Shown piece by piece: positions 12,001-21,000 of a stretch of 64,000 nucleotides of DNA (positions are counted from its first letter, which is position 1; each line of letters opens with the position of its first letter). The position numbers are program-made. This DNA comes from an uncultured Alphaproteobacteria bacterium. GTDB lineage: Bacteria; Pseudomonadota; Alphaproteobacteria; SMXQ01. The stretch spans positions 1,442,678 through 1,506,677 of the forward strand of contig CAVTBD010000002.1 in NCBI GenBank assembly GCA_963732875.1. Direction: 5' to 3'.

Positions 12001-15000
12001 TATGCAGCCTCGAAGGCAGGCATCGTACGCCTACTCGAGACTCTGGCAGTGGAATTGGCGCCGATGGGTATCACCGTCAACGGCATCGCTCCCGGCTTCG
12101 TCAAAACGGAAATTCATGACGCCACCCTCTCGGCTGGTCCCGAACGGGCAGGCGACGACTTCCACGCCATGACCGTCGCCAAGCTCAATGAAGGCTATGT
12201 TCCTATGAACGTCCCGGTGGCCTGCGTGCAATGGCTGCTGTCCGACGCCGCCCATGGCCTGACCGGCAAAACCATCAGCGCGAGTTTCGACCCTTGGTCC
12301 GATCCACGATTCCAAGCCGCGATTCACGAACTCAATGACTCAGACCTATACACTATGCGCCGTATCAACCTCAGGAATCTTCCTGGGGATATTGTCGTCG
12401 AGAAACTGACTGGCGACGAAACATCGAAAAATTGAGAATTCGGGTGGTGCTTTAAGCTGGCCAGACGAAGCAAAATTTGGTCCAATACTTTCGATAATAT
12501 CTGCATATCTACGTGTTCACGCTAGCCACTTTTCATCCCCTTGAGTGCACCCCTCCCCATAAGATGACATCCGATGAAAAATGAACCTACCACCAGTTTC
12601 CAGCTCTTTCGCGTGATGCGCCTGATACGGCGAACTGAGGAAATCCTCATGGAGGAGTACCATCCCGCCGACGAGATGCGTTGCCCAATACATTTCTGCG
12701 TTGGACAAGAGGCCACGCCGGCCGCCCTGTCACTGCTGTTTCAATCGGGTGACGTGGTGATGAGCCACCACCGCAGTCATGGTTACTACCTCGCCAAGGG
12801 TGCGCCTGTGGAGGCCATGGTCGCTGAGTTCTACGGCAAGGCCACCGGATCAAACGGCGGCCTCGCCGGGTCCCAGGAGTTGAGCCACGAGGGCTACAAC
12901 TTCTATAGCGGCACCATTCTCTCCGGCATGTTTGCCATGGCCACGGGCGCCGCGTTCTCACAAAGATACAATGGAACCAATGACATAACGGTTGGGGTTA
13001 TCGGCGACGGCGGAATGGAGGAAGGCATCGTATTCGAAGCCCTCAACCTCGCCGCAGTGTTCCGCTTGCCCATCCTGTTTGTCTGCGAAAATAATCTTTA
13101 TTCGGCTCATACGAGGATCGATGTCAGGACCCGTTCGAGGAGCCTAGCCGAGCGGGCAGCAGCCTTCCAGGTGCCCTCCAAGATTCTAGACGGCAACGAC
13201 GCGCCCGGCCTTCTTCAGGAACTGACCGAAATCACTGCGGATATTCGGGCCGGTAACGGCCCCTTCTGCATCGAGGTCAACACCTACCGCACCTGTGGTC
13301 ATGTGGGGCCGGAAAATGACGACGTTCTCGGCTATCGCACCCAGGAAGAGCTGGAAGCTTGGAAACAGCGTGATCCCCTTGCCACGCTTCGCGCAGCTAT
13401 GGTCGACGCTGGCCAGGACGAGGGTGCCCTCACCTCGGTCGAGGAAGAAGTCGACCTACAGGTCAAGGCTGCGATCACGCAAGCAAAGGCCGCGCCGTTT
13501 CCCGGGTATGAAGAAGCGCTGGCTTGCAACTGGTCGAATAAACTGAGCCCCTTGGTCACTCGCATGACACACGGGACGGCCGCCTTTGTCGGTGGTCAGA
13601 ACGAAACGAAGCTCAAGCCTTACTAGCAATCTGCAGAAGGAGAATTGCCGCGGTGCCTATAAGGCGCCCCGGCACGACGAAAATGGCGGGTCAGGACAGT
13701 AAATTAGGCGCCCCAACAGGGAAGGTAAGCCGCAGGAATTTCGGCCAGGCGATCAACGATGCATCGCGCCAGGCCATGGAAATGGACGAAGTCCGTCTTC
13801 CTCTACGGACTCGGCGTTGACAGCAAGGCAGGCATTTTCGGTAGCACCTTGGGTCTTGCGGACATGTTCGGTGCCAAGCGCGTCTTCGATACGCCTGTTT
13901 CCGAACAGGCCCTGACCGCCATGGCCGCGGGTGCCGCCATCAATGGGCTCCGGCCGCTCTTGGTGCACCAGCGCCTAGACTTCATGGTCTACACCATGGA
14001 TCAGATCGTCAACTGGATCAGCCTCTGGCATTTCAAGTCGGCCGGCAGGTCCAAGGTCCCGCTTACCATCCGCGCCATCGTCGGCAAGGGTTGGGGCCAG
14101 GGCCCGCAACACGCGAAAAGCTTGCACACCTGGTTCGCCCATATCCCTGGGCTGCAGGTCGTCATTCCCGGCTCCCCCGCCGATGCCAAGGGCCTGCTGC
14201 TGTCCAGCATCATGAGCGACGATCCGACGATTTTTATCGAAGGGCGTTCTCTTTATTCCATGGAAGAGGACGTGCCCGACGATCCCTATTTCATCGAGCT
14301 TGGGAAAGCCTTGATTCGCCGCATGGGAAAAGATGTCAGTATAGTAACGTTCGGCTCGATGGTGCCTCATAGTCTCGCGGCGGCCGAAACTCTCGCAGCC
14401 CAGGGAATCGATGCCGAAGTCCTCGATTTGCGCTGCCTGATGCCACTGGACAGCGCCGCCGTCGTCAAATCAGCCGCTAAAACGGGCCGTCTCGTCGTCG
14501 TGGAGCCGGGGTGGCTGCATTATGGTGCCGCCGCAGAAATCGTGGCGCAGGTTGCCGAGGCCATCGGCCCCCAATTAAAAGCCGCCCCAAAGCGCGTCAC
14601 TTGGCCGCACAGCCATGTACCGACGAGCAGCCCTCTGGAAGCCCGGTATTATCCGACGAATGATGATATCGTTGCCGCCTGCGTGAGTGTGGCGAAGGCC
14701 TGATACCGGATGGGGCCGAAAGGATGACCGACAGCACCCGCGCCGCGTGGGATAGCGTCATCGCCTTGCTGACGGGCGAAACCTTGAAGCTCGGCCCGGT
14801 TAGCACTGATCGTTATGTACTCGATCCCAAACGCCTGTGCTTTTTCCTGTCGCGGTATAAATTCGCCGCAAAGATGCTACGGGACTGCCAACGAATTGCC
14901 GACATCGGCTGCGGCGACGGCATAGGAACGCTGATACTGCTTTCCGATACGAAGGCGACAATACAGGGCATCGATTTCGACACCGTGCAGATTGAGTACG

Positions 15001-18000: not shown

Positions 18001-21000
18001 ATTCAACGCTCAAAAGATGTGCGGCACGCTCTGTTTGCAGCACAAGGTGAATGAGGCGTTGGATGCGCACGCCAAAGGCATCGTCACGCTCAAGCAACCC
18101 AGCGGTCCGGCGCCCATTCATACTAATTTCATTTGAAGGCTGACACCTCCTCCGCGCGACGTAAGGAATATCATGTCGAGCGACAGCCCCCGAGGCGATG
18201 GACAGTGCGATGGGCGGTCTAAAACCTATGCGCTAGAAGGGGCTGCCGCTCTTCTTGTAACGCCAGAACATCGTTACCTGATGCAATTGCGCAGCAACAT
18301 TCCCGAACTGCATCTGGCAAACCACTGGGGCCTGTTCGGCGGACACATTGAACCGCAGGAGACACCGATCGAGGCTTTGCGGCGCGAACTGATCGAAGAA
18401 CTGGAATTCTCGCCACGGCACATTTCGTGGTTCACTGAAATTTCTTACAGAATCCCGATCACCAACTTTGGCCCCATTCACAAGACCTTCTTCGAAGTGC
18501 CGGTGGCCAGTGCCGAGGTCGCCGAAATGCGCCTCCATGAAGGCGACGGCATGCGTTTGTTTTCATTCGAGGAGTTGGCGCACCAACCAAATACCGTACC
18601 GTGGGATTTTTTCGGTGTTCTGCTCCATGTACGGCGCTGGGAAATCCGCGGCAGGCCCTCAGTAGCGAGGAAAGACACCGGAAAAATCCTAGCTTCCCGC
18701 CACGCGGCCTTCGCCCAGCCGGTAATATGCGAGCCCGGCGGCGCGGCAGGCCGCCCCGTCGAGCATGCCATAGGGATCGACCACTAGCCGGCCGCTGAGC
18801 CGCACGGCAACGACCTTGGGGTCGAGCCTGGCGAATTCGGACCAAGGTGTCACCACTACCAGGGCATCGGCGTCGTCGCAGACGGCAAGGGCATCGGGCG
18901 CCTGAGAAAGCGCCCCATGCCAGCGTCTGTCTGCCGCGACCATCGGGTCGTAGGCGGTAAATCGGCAGTCGGGCAGCGCCGCCAGAAGGGCAAGCGCCGG
19001 GGAATTTTTAGTCGAGGCGGTATCCTGCTTGTAAGCGAGGCCAAGGACGCCTAGGTGTGCGGTTGGCTTTTCCGCCAGCACCGTTTCGCGCAGCACGTCG
19101 AGGGCCCAGTCGCGCCGGTGGCGGCTGTTCGCGACCCAAGCGGCGACGATGCCAGTATCCGTACACTTCGCCGCACCGATGCGCATGACCGTGGTCAGGT
19201 CGCGCTCGAGATTGCCGCCAGAGATGCCGAGGCCAGGGGTCAGGTAGGCGTATTGGCCAATGCGGCGGTCTAGCCTGAGCGCTGGGACAATCTCGGCCCA
19301 GTCGGCCCCGATGCGCTCGCACAGTTCGGCCAGCGTATTGGCGGTGCTGATGGAGGCGACCAGGCACATATTGATGGCGATCTTAGCGAGCTCGGCGCTC
19401 TCGTAACGCATCGGCAGCACCGGGCAACCAAAGGCGGCAAGGAAATCAGCATAGACGGGCGGCAGCGGCCGTGCAGGGTCGTCACAGCCGACGATAAAGC
19501 GCTCAGGATTGACTGCCCGCTGGAACGCCTGCCCGAAGACGAGCGTTTCAACCTGGTAATAGCGGCGCGCGACGGGGCGCGACAGCGACCGTGTGAAGCC
19601 GGGCGGCACCTGACTGAGAACCACCATCACCGCATCGGGGGCAAGGCATGTGTCGACCCTGGCAATAAGAGCACCAAGCCAGGCAAGGTCGCTCTGACCC
19701 GCGTCGTCTGTGGGCACGTCGGGGGCGACGTAGCAAACGTCGAGCGCCTCCAGCGCAGCCGGGTCGGAGGTAAAGGTGAGCCGCGCCGCGTTACGGGTCA
19801 CGGCCTCGGCGAGCCCTGGTTCGTGGATCGGAAATCGTCCTTCGCCCAGCGCACGCACCACCGCCACATTGGGATCGAAGCCGGTAACCTGAAAGCCCCG
19901 TTCGGCAGCGGCGACTGCCGAATTGATTCCAAGATGGGTAAGTCCGGCGAAACCGATCCGAGACGACGCAACGGCACTCATGAAGCCTTCTCCCGACAAC
20001 CCGCATCACGCGCCAACGCATTCAGGGTATCATTAATCCAAATGTCGTTGTCGAGGGTGTTGATGCCGGCGCGGCAAAGCCTCTTGAAATGCTCATATTC
20101 CAGTGCCCATGTCGGATCGGCGCATTCAAGAGGAATAAGCGTCTCCTGCGGGCGGCCCGCGGGCAACACCCGGCGACGCAGCGTGAAGGTCGCGGGCCCC
20201 CACTTGCACAACGAGTTGATATGGGCGCTGCCTTTTTCTGCAATGACGTCGCAGGTGAAATGATTGCGCCACATCAGCAGAGTCATCTCGAGCTGGATGA
20301 GCGGAGTTCCAGCCGCCGCGACAACGACGTGGTCATAGGCACGGTTCTCAAATCGCTCGGCAGCCACCACTTTGAAGGCCGGCCTCTTGCTCAGCCAAAA
20401 GACCACAGCATCCAGCAGGTGCGAACCGAGATCTCGCAGTACGCCGGAGCCACTGTCACGCCATAGCAAATCGCGTACCAATCGGGCCGTGCCATTGCCA
20501 TAGAAGGCACGCAGGCTATAGATTTCCCCGAGTTCGCCCGCGGCTAGCACCTCGTGAAGGCGAACGAAATGCGGCTCGAAACGGTGGTTATAGGCGGTGT
20601 AGCAGGCAACCCGCTTGTCGCGGGCAAGAGCTGCGAGCGCCGCTAGGTCGGCATCGTCTTCAGCCATTAGTGGCTTTTCCACCAGCACATGCTTGCCATT
20701 GGCAAGAAGATAGGCGATCAGTTCGATCTTGACGTCATCGGGGGTGCATAAGAGCGCCGCGTCGTAATCGGCGAGCGGCACGTCGGAAATATGGCGATAA
20801 TCGGCATCTTCCTGTACGGGATCGACGACGGCCGCAACGTCAGACCCGGCGACGGCACGGCGCTTGCGCCCCTGAACTCCCAGCCCGGCAATTACAACCC
20901 GCATCGGCGCCCGCGATCAGGACGCGAAGTGCGCCCGCTTCTCCAGCAGGTTGATCTTTTCCACGACTGCCTGCGGCGTCACCGGCACGTTGCCGTCGAA

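What the first reader, a model, noticed from the sequence alone, without database searches (positions are those of the whole stretch)
14724..18787. Lower-GC module: methyltransferase, 469-aa unknown protein, twitch/SPASM-like radical SAM and Nudix hydrolase. Candidate uncharacterised nucleotide-sugar tailoring system
Four co-directional, tightly spaced genes with GC clearly below the surrounding DNA. The radical SAM enzyme (CNYGCHFC plus 6 C-terminal Cys) resembles BtrN/DesII-type sugar-modifying radical SAM dehydrogenases/deaminases in size, without a cobalamin domain. The Nudix could hydrolyse an NDP-sugar, as GDP-mannose mannosyl hydrolase does in colanic-acid loci. The 469-aa protein has no recognisable family. 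Together they may encode an undescribed modification of a nucleotide-activated sugar. A nucleotide-directed (e.g. antiviral-type) chemistry cannot be excluded from sequence alone.
Basis: inference. Interest (0 to 1): 0.65.

Follow-up and report, generated by a model that had tools for sequence, protein, structure and literature searches.

The report
Radical SAM enzyme pair in sugar locus
The four genes are real but are only part of a roughly 15-gene surface-polysaccharide locus, whose interesting core is an uncharacterised, very widespread pair of genes (a radical SAM enzyme and a partner with an iron-sulfur-scaffold fold) that almost always sit together in heptose-sugar tailoring clusters.

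Summary
The four ORFs exist as described: a methyltransferase, a 469-aa unknown protein, a radical SAM (rSAM)/SPASM protein and a Nudix hydrolase. Their GC (0.562) matches the rest of a ~20-kb lower-GC glycan island (0.577), so they are not a separate module. Related loci show a unit of about 15 genes (11557-26459). It comprises an SDR, a split E1-type ThDP enzyme, the four genes, and a convergent operon for making and modifying an NDP-heptose or NDP-octose. In one relative all of these form a single operon. The strongly conserved element is the unknown-protein/rSAM pair. In 92 of 98 loci the unknown gene lies directly upstream on the same strand, with a median gap of 11 nt. All 25 large rSAM-centred loci carry it, usually with ThDP enzyme, heptose-activation, SDR and DegT genes. 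The rSAM is about 70% identical across phyla and matches no characterised family. The partner has no Pfam family, at least 895 cluster representatives, and a confidently modelled IscU-like domain lacking the cluster-binding cysteines. The methyltransferase is lineage-specific and the Nudix sporadic. Best reading: a two-component radical enzyme tailoring an acyl-branched nucleotide sugar. The exact reaction is unknown. An antiviral reading is not supported.

The parts
11557..12435 (+). Classical SDR (292 aa). Candidate ketoreductase for the acyl branch.
   Evidence: adh_short 140 bits. A homologue lies next to E1a-E1b in L001, L009, L112 and L114.
12574..13626 (+). ThDP-dependent E1 alpha-like subunit (350 aa).
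   Evidence: E1_dh 197 bits. The PDH E1-alpha equivalog scores 240, below its cutoff of 394. A ThDP enzyme is present in 22 of 25 large rSAM-centred loci.
13759..14703 (+). ThDP-dependent E1 beta-like subunit (314 aa).
   Evidence: Transket_pyr plus Transketolase_C. The PDH E1-beta model scores 256, below its cutoff of 321. It is fused to the alpha subunit in most relatives.
14724..15419 (+). Class-I SAM methyltransferase (231 aa). Lineage-specific tailoring enzyme.
   Evidence: Methyltransf_23/25/11/12. It lies between E1b and the unknown gene in L001, L009, L112/113 and L114, and in 0 of 25 loci of the broad sample.
15431..16840 (+). 469-aa partner protein of the rSAM. It belongs to a family with no Pfam entry and has a degenerate IscU/NifU-N-like domain at about residues 225-360.
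   Evidence: No Pfam or NCBIfam hit. 895 cluster representatives at E<1e-3. AF2 pLDDT 90.6. Foldseek finds IscU/SufU with TM up to 0.70. IscU ligand Cys are replaced. Only C295 is conserved, at 92%.
17021..18136 (+). Radical SAM enzyme (371 aa) with a C-terminal twitch/SPASM-type auxiliary Fe-S domain.
   Evidence: Radical_SAM 55.6 bits and SPASM 27.1 bits. C44/48/51 plus C268/C286/C334/C338 are invariant, as is C215. More than 4020 90%-identity clusters, about 70% identical across phyla.
18173..18787 (+). Nudix hydrolase, a sporadic accessory gene. Its true end is probably near 18691.
   Evidence: NUDIX 50.4 bits. The Nudix box G57-F79 is intact except at the penultimate position (sequence). 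A 1-nt indel relative to L031 changes the length. It lies directly after the rSAM in L001, L016, L018, L109 and L112.
18689..19999 (-). NDP-sugar dehydrogenase (436 aa).
   Evidence: TIGR03026 200.9 bits, above its cutoff of 189.8. It is syntenic in L030, L031 and L114.
19978..20904 (-). Gfo/Idh/MocA oxidoreductase (308 aa).
   Evidence: Weak NCBIfam hits to Gfo-type sugar dehydrogenases. Syntenic in L030 and L114.
20917..22470 (-). Bifunctional nucleotidyltransferase plus PfkB kinase, like HldE but with the domain order reversed (517 aa).
   Evidence: rfaE domain II at residues 28-162 and domain I at 193-505, both below their cutoffs. 61% identical to the L030 orthologue.
22463..23482 (-). 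Extended SDR, NDP-sugar 4,6-dehydratase/epimerase-like (339 aa).
   Evidence: Similarity to GalE, LegB and RmlB, all below their cutoffs. 52-59% identical in distant loci. Present in 16 of 25 large loci.
23479..24522 (-). Second extended SDR (347 aa).
   Evidence: 52-58% identical in distant loci, where it usually lies directly upstream of the E1 gene. Present in 20 of 25 large loci.
24540..25253 (-). Small transaldolase (237 aa).
   Evidence: TIGR02134 332 bits, above its cutoff of 282. Found only in window-type loci: L030, L112 and L114.
25265..25849 (-). GmhB-like HAD phosphatase (194 aa).
   Evidence: HAD-IIIA and GmhB models.
25836..26459 (-). SIS (GmhA-like) isomerase gene, interrupted by a frameshift.
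   Evidence: tblastn with the L030 SIS protein switches from frame -3 to frame -1 at 26148-26161. The ORF as read has no family hit.
6990..8695 (.). Wzm (ABC-2 permease, - strand) and Wzt (ABC ATPase, + strand), the export genes of the island.
   Evidence: ABC2_membrane and ABC_tran.

Best explanation
**The locus.** The four genes belong to a roughly 15-gene locus (11557-26459). It lies inside a lower-GC island for an ABC-transporter-exported polysaccharide and builds a modified nucleotide-activated heptose, or possibly an octose.

**Inferred pathway, from the enzyme families present.**
1. Transaldolase, SIS isomerase, PfkB kinase/nucleotidyltransferase and HAD phosphatase make the NDP-sugar.
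2. The two extended SDRs generate and process a keto-deoxy intermediate.
3. The E1 alpha/beta ThDP enzyme transfers an acyl unit from a 2-keto acid to the keto sugar, and an SDR reduces it. This is the YerE/YerF and AviB1/AviB2 logic.
4. The methyltransferase, Gfo oxidoreductase, NDP-sugar dehydrogenase and Nudix are lineage-specific tailoring or nucleotide-handling steps.

**The conserved core.** The 371-aa radical SAM enzyme and the 469-aa protein encoded just upstream most likely work as a two-component radical enzyme on the nucleotide sugar.
- The rSAM cleaves SAM at its CX3CX2C cluster and abstracts a hydrogen from an unactivated sugar carbon.
- A C-terminal four-Cys auxiliary cluster handles electrons.
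- The invariant non-cluster Cys215 could return a hydrogen atom, giving an epimerisation or reductive outcome.
- The partner binds no Fe-S cluster of its own. It probably acts as an obligatory docking or substrate-presenting subunit.

**Shown versus inferred.** Shown: gene content, the co-conservation statistics, the cysteine patterns and the fold. Inferred: the order of steps, the substrate, complex formation and the type of radical reaction.
For: **Pair coupling**
- 59 of 61 rSAM-centred metagenome loci with at least 1.3 kb of upstream sequence carry the partner gene.
- In 92 of 98 loci with both genes, the partner lies directly upstream on the same strand. Gaps run from -13 to 198 nt, with a median of 11, and about 33 loci have 1- or 4-nt overlaps.
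- In the partner-centred genome scan the rSAM follows in every locus except L009. There it lies about 6-27 kb away on the same contig, next to the same sugar operon.

**Context**
- Among the 25 rSAM-centred loci of at least 15 kb, the counts are: partner 25, ThDP enzyme 22, kinase/NT 21, DegT 21, SDR-347 type 20, SIS 19, SDR-339 type 16.
- L114 has the window's + and - strand blocks as one co-directional operon.
- L030 and L112 show the same gene set.

**rSAM features**
- Pfam Radical_SAM plus SPASM.
- C268, C286, C334 and C338 are invariant and are kept in a 27%-identical paralogue. C215 is invariant in the family. 153 of 371 residues are at least 99% conserved.
- The weak profile hits include the sugar-acting enzymes DesII and BlsE and the BtrN twitch region.

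**Partner**
- High-confidence model, pLDDT 90.6.
- IscU fold, but without the cluster ligands.

**Precedents**
- ThDP branching followed by reductase: PMC9306805, PMC4753412.
Against: - There are no biochemical data. The substrate and the reaction type cannot be read from sequence.
- The rSAM's best curated matches are maturase-type families, all far below their cutoffs: TIGR04317 at 86.5 bits against 380, and SkfB as the top PDB hit. A protein or cofactor substrate therefore remains possible.
- Three of the 25 large loci lack a ThDP enzyme within the sequence held, so the radical step is not strictly tied to acyl branching.
- The window type lacks the DegT genes that accompany the pair in 21 of 25 loci. 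The substrate may therefore differ between the two cluster types.
- Complex formation is inferred only from gene coupling.
- The dedicated SIS gene is frameshifted in this window. The pathway here may be impaired, or the assembly may carry indel errors.
Confidence: 0.55

Rival explanations
1. The rSAM is a maturase whose substrate is the 469-aa protein. It would install a cross-link or a residue-derived cofactor, and the matured protein would be the real sugar-tailoring enzyme.
For: - The best curated similarities are to maturases: TIGR04317 at 86.5 bits, plus the SkfB, PqqE and NirJ families.
- Gene coupling is very tight and often translational.
- The partner has no recognisable catalytic family, yet it has near-invariant W48-V-P-D51, C295, H309, W375 and a C-terminal D462...R467-R468 tail.
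Against: - All maturase hits are far below their family cutoffs.
- Only about 37 residues precede the CX3CX2C motif, which leaves no room for an RRE-type peptide-binding domain (sequence).
- The partner is a large, confidently folded multidomain protein.
- Its one conserved Cys is replaced by A, S or T in 8% of members.
- The enzyme (~70% identity) is far more conserved than the supposed substrate (23-48%).
Confidence: 0.17
2. The 469-aa protein is a dedicated Fe-S cluster scaffold or repair factor that loads or rebuilds the clusters of the rSAM.
For: - Foldseek matches IscU, SufU and NifU-N with probability 1.0 and TM up to 0.70.
- 9 of 119 members have weak NifU_N Pfam hits.
- A NifU-like PDB entry is the top profile hit, at E 0.4.
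Against: - The IscU ligand positions align to non-Cys residues: C37 to A257 and C63 to S285.
- Only one Cys column is conserved across the family, and the median is 3 Cys per protein.
- No cysteine desulfurase gene was seen in any of the loci mapped.
Confidence: 0.08
3. The rSAM and Nudix act on free nucleotides, as a viperin-like antiviral or nucleotide-modifying system unrelated to the glycan genes around them.
For: - Generic hits to pVip models (55.8 bits) and to the viperin NCBIfam model (47.5 bits).
- The Nudix gives weak MutT-like hits.
Against: - The viperin model cutoff is 180 bits, and the hit covers only the rSAM core.
- The Nudix accompanies the rSAM in only 2 of 25 broad-sample loci.
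- Every large locus is a sugar-nucleotide or glycan context.
- No defence genes are adjacent.
Confidence: 0.02

Closest known systems
Sugar-acting twitch-type radical SAM enzymes (DesII, BtrN, BlsE; also HygY and AprD4, from my own knowledge)
   Same: - rSAM core with CX3CX2C, a Cys-rich C-terminal auxiliary domain and no cobalamin domain.
- Encoded among sugar-tailoring genes.
- Weak profile similarity to DesII (E 0.002), to the BtrN auxiliary region (E 0.04) and to BlsE (E 0.05).
   Different: - It is not a member of any of them: DesII NCBIfam scores 32 bits against a cutoff of 450, and BlsE 21 bits against 400.
- It has an obligatory, co-translated partner with an IscU-like fold, which none of those enzymes has.
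- It is about 70% conserved across phyla.
- It sits with NDP-heptose genes rather than in aminoglycoside or macrolide pathways.
ThDP-dependent acyl branching of keto-deoxy nucleotide sugars (YerE/YerF; AviB1/AviB2; ErwE/ErwF)
   Same: A ThDP enzyme plus a reductase next to a 4,6-dehydratase-like SDR. This is the logic described in PMC9306805 and PMC4753412. The split E1 alpha/beta form corresponds to the AviB1/AviB2 type.
   Different: No radical SAM enzyme or IscU-like protein is mentioned in the parts of those two papers read here. The sugar here derives from a heptose-type activation route rather than from CDP/dTDP-glucose. The donor keto acid is unknown.
IscU/NifU-N/SufU iron-sulfur scaffold proteins
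   Same: The fold of residues ~225-360 (Foldseek probability 1.0, TM up to 0.70). There is a remote sequence signal.
   Different: The three cluster-ligand cysteines are absent. The domain is embedded in a 350-470-aa multidomain protein. No desulfurase partner gene is present.
Lincosamide GDP-octose pathway (LmbR, N, P, K, O, then LmbM, L, Z)
   Same: The window-type operon has the same enzyme classes: transaldolase, isomerase, kinase, phosphatase, nucleotidyltransferase, epimerase-type SDR, oxidoreductase and dehydrogenase. The Lmb functions are listed in PMC4351081 and PMC12945683.
   Different: Orthology was not tested. The family assignment of LmbL and LmbZ is from memory. The lincosamide pathway has an aminotransferase and has no rSAM, ThDP enzyme or partner protein. 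The transaldolase is absent from the common (DegT-type) loci.
Tunicamycin TunB (rSAM), TunM (methyltransferase-like) and TunN (Nudix). Recalled from memory as a lead only.
   Same: The same three protein families occur side by side in a nucleotide-sugar pathway in which the rSAM makes a C-C bond to give a higher-carbon sugar.
   Different: Not tested here, because no Tun sequences were available. The methyltransferase and Nudix are not conserved with the rSAM outside the close lineage. The 469-aa partner has no counterpart in that system.

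Membership tests
Radical SAM superfamily (PF04055) | CX3CX2C cluster motif and a Pfam score above the gathering threshold. | tested here: met
   C44-X3-C48-X2-C51 is invariant. PF04055 scores 55.6 bits against a cutoff of 29.5.
SPASM subgroup (two auxiliary clusters) | Seven-Cys motif that includes CX2CX5CX3C. | tested here: not met
   PF13186 scores 27.1 bits against a cutoff of 21.5. 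However, the C-terminal Cys spacing is C268-X17-C286-X16-C303-X30-C334-X3-C338, with no CX2CX5CX3C. Four Cys are invariant and shared with the paralogue, which is the twitch pattern. C162, C215 and C303 could still form a second site.
DesII (TIGR04426) / BtrN-type sugar rSAM | Score above the family cutoff. | tested here: not met
   DesII scores 32.1 bits against a cutoff of 450. PDB profile E-values are 0.002 for DesII and 0.04 for the BtrN auxiliary region only.
Prokaryotic viperin (NF038283 / PADLOC pVip) | Full-length match above the cutoff, in a defence context. | tested here: not met
   47.5 bits against a cutoff of 180, covering residues 39-186 only. pVip scores 55.8 bits on the core only. 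The neighbours are glycan genes.
Tungsten-cofactor oxidoreductase rSAM maturase (TIGR04317) | Score above the cutoff, and an adjacent aldehyde:ferredoxin oxidoreductase gene. | tested here: not met
   86.5 bits against a cutoff of 380. No such neighbour is seen in the window or in the loci mapped.
IscU/NifU-N scaffold (PF01592) | The fold. | tested here: met
   Foldseek against PDB gives IscU, ISCU2 and SufU at probability 1.0, with target TM up to 0.70, using a model of pLDDT 90.6.
IscU/NifU-N scaffold (PF01592) | Three conserved cluster-ligand cysteines, and a Pfam score above the threshold. | tested here: not met
   No Pfam hit for the window protein. C37 and C63 of IscU align to A257 and S285. 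Only C295 is conserved, and it lies at a non-ligand position.
Nudix hydrolase (PF00293) | Nudix box GX5EX7REUXEEXGU and the Pfam threshold. | tested here: met
   50.4 bits against a cutoff of 21.1. The box spans G57-F79, with E in place of the penultimate G (sequence).
GDP-mannose mannosyl hydrolase type Nudix | A match to a curated model for that enzyme. | tested here: inconclusive
   The eight NCBIfam hits are all weak and are of the MutT, NudE, NudI and RppH types. None is for a mannosyl hydrolase. I did not verify that the library holds such a model.
Pyruvate dehydrogenase E1 (true PDH complex) | Equivalog scores above the cutoffs, and E2/E3 partner genes. | tested here: not met
   Alpha scores 240 against 394 and beta 256 against 321. 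No E2 or E3 is among the annotated ORFs of the island at 6990-29424.
ThDP acyl-branching enzymes of nucleotide sugars (AviB1/AviB2 type) | An E1 alpha/beta pair encoded with a 4,6-dehydratase-type SDR and a ketoreductase in a sugar cluster, and demonstrated carboligation. | not testable with these tools
   The gene-context part is met. Activity and direct homology to AviB1/B2 could not be tested, because no sequences were held.

The most novel reading that the evidence does not exclude
The rSAM and its IscU-fold partner form a new kind of two-component radical enzyme. It would carry out a transformation not yet known for nucleotide sugars, for example a radical C-C bond formation, rearrangement or carbocyclisation on an NDP-heptose that is coupled to the ThDP-derived acyl unit. 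The product would be an undescribed class of branched higher-carbon sugars, common in the surface glycans of many uncultured soil and water bacteria (Myxococcota, Elusimicrobiota, Rhodospirillales, Chloroflexota).
Probability: 0.25. Interest if true: 0.85.

Novelty: new variant of a known kind. Interest (0 to 1): 0.62.

Why it matters
Radical SAM enzymes that act on sugars are few, and each characterised one revealed new chemistry. This family has more than 4000 sequence clusters at 90% identity and is about 70% identical across phyla. It carries no functional name. It is almost always paired with a protein family that has no Pfam entry and whose only recognisable element is an iron-sulfur scaffold fold stripped of its ligands.

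Working out what the pair does would have three consequences:
- It would define a new step in bacterial heptose-derived glycan biosynthesis.
- It would allow annotation of thousands of genes.
- It would show what an IscU fold is used for when it no longer binds a cluster.

Cultured carriers make it testable. Azospirillum sp. TSO35-2 carries the rSAM. MAGs assigned to Ferrovibrio terrae and Rhodoplanes piscinae carry the pair.

Tried and rejected
1. **Bradyrhizose lead.** The published candidate cluster (PMC4743980) is an 11-gene operon around a dTDP-glucose dehydratase, and the paper gives no gene list to compare. The genome scan with the partner's motif returned no Bradyrhizobium locus. Dropped.

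2. **Chain-extension idea for erwiniose and caryophyllose.** PMC9306805 explains these sugars by longer keto-acid donors to a ThDP enzyme, without radical chemistry. Dropped as a specific model.

3. **Organism identification.** Exact-sequence look-ups gave no names. There is no rRNA or other Rfam hit in the window.

5. **Literature searches.** Searches for an rSAM linked to heptose, O-antigen or SPASM found nothing relevant. The library lacks most subscription papers, and the key lincosamide papers could not be read.

6. **The 180-nt gap before the rSAM gene.** It is no more structured than shuffled sequence (z -0.8). The promoter and terminator scan was at background level.

7. **First ORF clustering of loci.** The greedy longest-ORF approach picked antisense ORFs in high-GC DNA. 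It was replaced by tblastn and HMM mapping.

Full report
**Observation**

The CNYGCHFC motif is real.

Composition does not single them out. Their GC is 0.562, the rest of the island (6990-26459) is 0.577, and the flanks are 0.63-0.68.

The island is a glycan locus. It holds Wzm/Wzt ABC-transporter genes, GT2 glycosyltransferases, an SDR, a split E1-type ThDP enzyme, and then the four genes. A convergent operon follows, encoding:
- an NDP-sugar dehydrogenase;
- a Gfo/Idh/MocA oxidoreductase;
- a reversed-order HldE-like nucleotidyltransferase/kinase;
- two extended SDRs;
- a transaldolase;
- a GmhB-like phosphatase;
- a SIS isomerase.

**What the unit is**

The closest relative of the 469-aa protein (60% identity) sits in the same order: E1a-E1b-methyltransferase-unknown-rSAM-Nudix.

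In L114 the window's + strand block and its - strand block form one co-directional operon: SDR-E1a-E1b-MT-unknown-rSAM-SIS-HAD-transaldolase-SDR-SDR-kinase/NT-Gfo-(dehydrogenase). L030 and L112/113 carry the same set in other arrangements. The functional unit in the window is therefore about 11557-26459, not 14724-18787.

**The conserved core**

- *First search.* A word-indexed search found only 8 relatives of the 469-aa protein.
- *Profile search.* A full profile search found 895 cluster representatives at E<1e-3, of which 428 were below 1e-30.
- *Partner-centred scan.* Species-representative genomes gave 21 loci in Rhodospirillales, Myxococcota, Elusimicrobiota, Oligoflexia and others. In all of them except L009 the rSAM gene follows directly. 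In L009 the rSAM lies elsewhere on the same contig, beside the sugar operon.
- *rSAM-centred scan.* Metagenomes gave 80 loci. Of the 61 with enough upstream sequence, 59 carry the partner.
- *Adjacency.* Over all loci with both genes, 92 of 98 have the partner directly upstream on the same strand. The median gap is 11 nt, and about a third overlap by 1 or 4 nt.

| Family | Present in the 25 rSAM-centred loci of ≥15 kb |
|---|---|
| Partner of the rSAM | 25 |
| ThDP enzyme | 22 |
| Kinase/nucleotidyltransferase | 21 |
| DegT aminotransferase-type | 21 |
| SDR-347 type | 20 |
| SIS | 19 |
| SDR-339 type | 16 |
| Nudix | 2 |
| The window's methyltransferase | 0 |

The methyltransferase is therefore specific to the window-type lineage, where it occurs in all five such loci. 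The Nudix is a sporadic add-on, although it recurs directly after the rSAM in distant lineages such as L016, L018 and L109.

**The rSAM**

It is 63-72% identical to its orthologues in other phyla. The neighbouring proteins are much less conserved: the partner 23-48%, E1 29-46% and the SDRs 52-59%. More than 4020 clusters at 90% identity match below 1e-20, and all are named only 'radical SAM protein'.

The cysteine pattern is as follows:
- C44/C48/C51 are invariant.
- C268, C286, C334 and C338 are invariant and are retained in a 27%-identical paralogue. This indicates one four-Cys auxiliary cluster of the twitch type.
- C215, in a KHCSD motif, is invariant in this family but is Tyr in the paralogue.
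- C162 and C303 are 95-97% conserved.
- The canonical SPASM CX2CX5CX3C motif is absent.

No curated family comes near its cutoff. The best is TIGR04317 at 86.5 bits against 380, with DesII at 32 against 450 and viperin at 47.5 against 180. Against PDB sequences the profile finds SkfB (7e-6), DesII (2e-3), PqqE, the BtrN auxiliary region (0.04) and BlsE (0.05).

**The partner**

- *Model.* With a 119-sequence alignment, AlphaFold gives pLDDT 90.6 and pTM 0.74. A disordered insert at 123-147 is peculiar to the window protein and its closest relative.
- *Fold.* The only clear structural match is the IscU/SufU/NifU-N fold for roughly residues 225-360, at probability 1.0 and TM up to 0.70. NifU_N is also the only recurrent weak Pfam hit, in 9 of 119 members.
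- *Missing ligands.* The cluster ligands are gone. IscU C37 and C63 align to A257 and S285. The family has a single conserved Cys, C295 at 92%, at a non-ligand position.
- *Conserved residues.* Invariant or nearly invariant residues are R36, W48-V49-P50-D51, H309, G329, W375, E442, D462 and R467-R468.

**Mechanism**

The enzyme classes around the pair fit the established scheme for acyl-branched sugars. An NDP-sugar is made, an SDR creates a keto-deoxy intermediate, a ThDP enzyme adds an acyl unit from a 2-keto acid, and a reductase converts it (PMC9306805, PMC4753412).

The window-type operon also mirrors, by enzyme class, the lincosamide GDP-octose route (PMC4351081, PMC12945683). The dedicated transaldolase might therefore mean an octose rather than a heptose. 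This is a lead and was not tested.

I infer that the rSAM and its partner form a two-component radical enzyme acting on this nucleotide sugar. C215 is a candidate hydrogen-atom donor, and the partner is a docking or substrate-presenting subunit. The reaction type cannot be decided in silico. Epimerisation, dehydration, dehydrogenation and C-C bond formation all remain possible.

**Rivals**

- *Maturase acting on the partner (0.17).* It fits the weak family similarities and the tight coupling. It fits poorly with the lack of an RRE-type domain and with the enzyme being far more conserved than its supposed substrate.
- *Fe-S scaffold role for the partner (0.08).* The missing ligands contradict it.
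- *Antiviral, nucleotide-directed role (0.02).* It has only generic core hits and no supporting context.

**Novelty**

Within the literature I could search, nothing describes this rSAM family, its partner, or their link to heptose clusters. That library is incomplete. I file it as a new variant of a known kind: a sugar-tailoring radical SAM enzyme with an obligatory partner of a new family.

Noticed in passing
window 25836-26459 (-), break near 26148-26161: The SIS (GmhA-like) isomerase gene of the sugar operon is split by a 1-nt frameshift. The second half of the 207-aa ORF is Arg-rich nonsense, and the true continuation is in another frame. This is either a pseudogene or an assembly indel.
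   Followed up: partly
window about 18668 (Nudix 3' end), compared with L031 3121-3821: A near-identical metagenome contig differs by one inserted base and one substitution. This changes the Nudix ORF from 172 to 204 aa and creates a 99-nt overlap with the convergent dehydrogenase gene. Together with the SIS frameshift, it hints at indel errors in this assembly.
   Followed up: yes
window 8702-9586 and 9583-11493 (+): Two proteins of 294 aa and 636 aa lie between Wzt and the sugar genes. The longer one has TPR repeats. Neither has a recognisable catalytic family. Weak homologues of the 636-aa protein recur next to Wzm/Wzt in L060. They may be an undescribed glycosyltransferase or polymerase of the ABC-transporter pathway.
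   Followed up: partly
L016 6434-10051; also L017, L018, L072, L079: A sub-type of the locus carries a second rSAM/SPASM paralogue (27% identical), a deoxyhypusine-synthase-like protein, and a split transketolase in place of E1 alpha/beta. These lie upstream of the partner-rSAM-Nudix genes.
   Followed up: partly
window 18689-26459 (-): The operon's enzyme classes match those of the lincosamide GDP-octose pathway: transaldolase, isomerase, phosphatase, kinase/NT, SDRs, Gfo oxidoreductase and NDP-sugar dehydrogenase. The activated sugar could therefore be an octose. Orthology was not tested.
   Followed up: partly
window 27629-29424 (+): A second heptose-activation set lies just outside the low-GC core: GmhA at 202 bits, and a fused HddC-like nucleotidyltransferase/GmhB phosphatase. 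It could substitute for the frameshifted SIS gene, or serve a separate GDP-heptose route.
   Followed up: no
window 16841-17020: The 180-nt spacer between the partner and rSAM genes is unusually long for the family, where the median is 11 nt. It contains a local hairpin at 16955-16992, but the spacer as a whole folds no better than shuffled sequence (z -0.8).
   Followed up: yes
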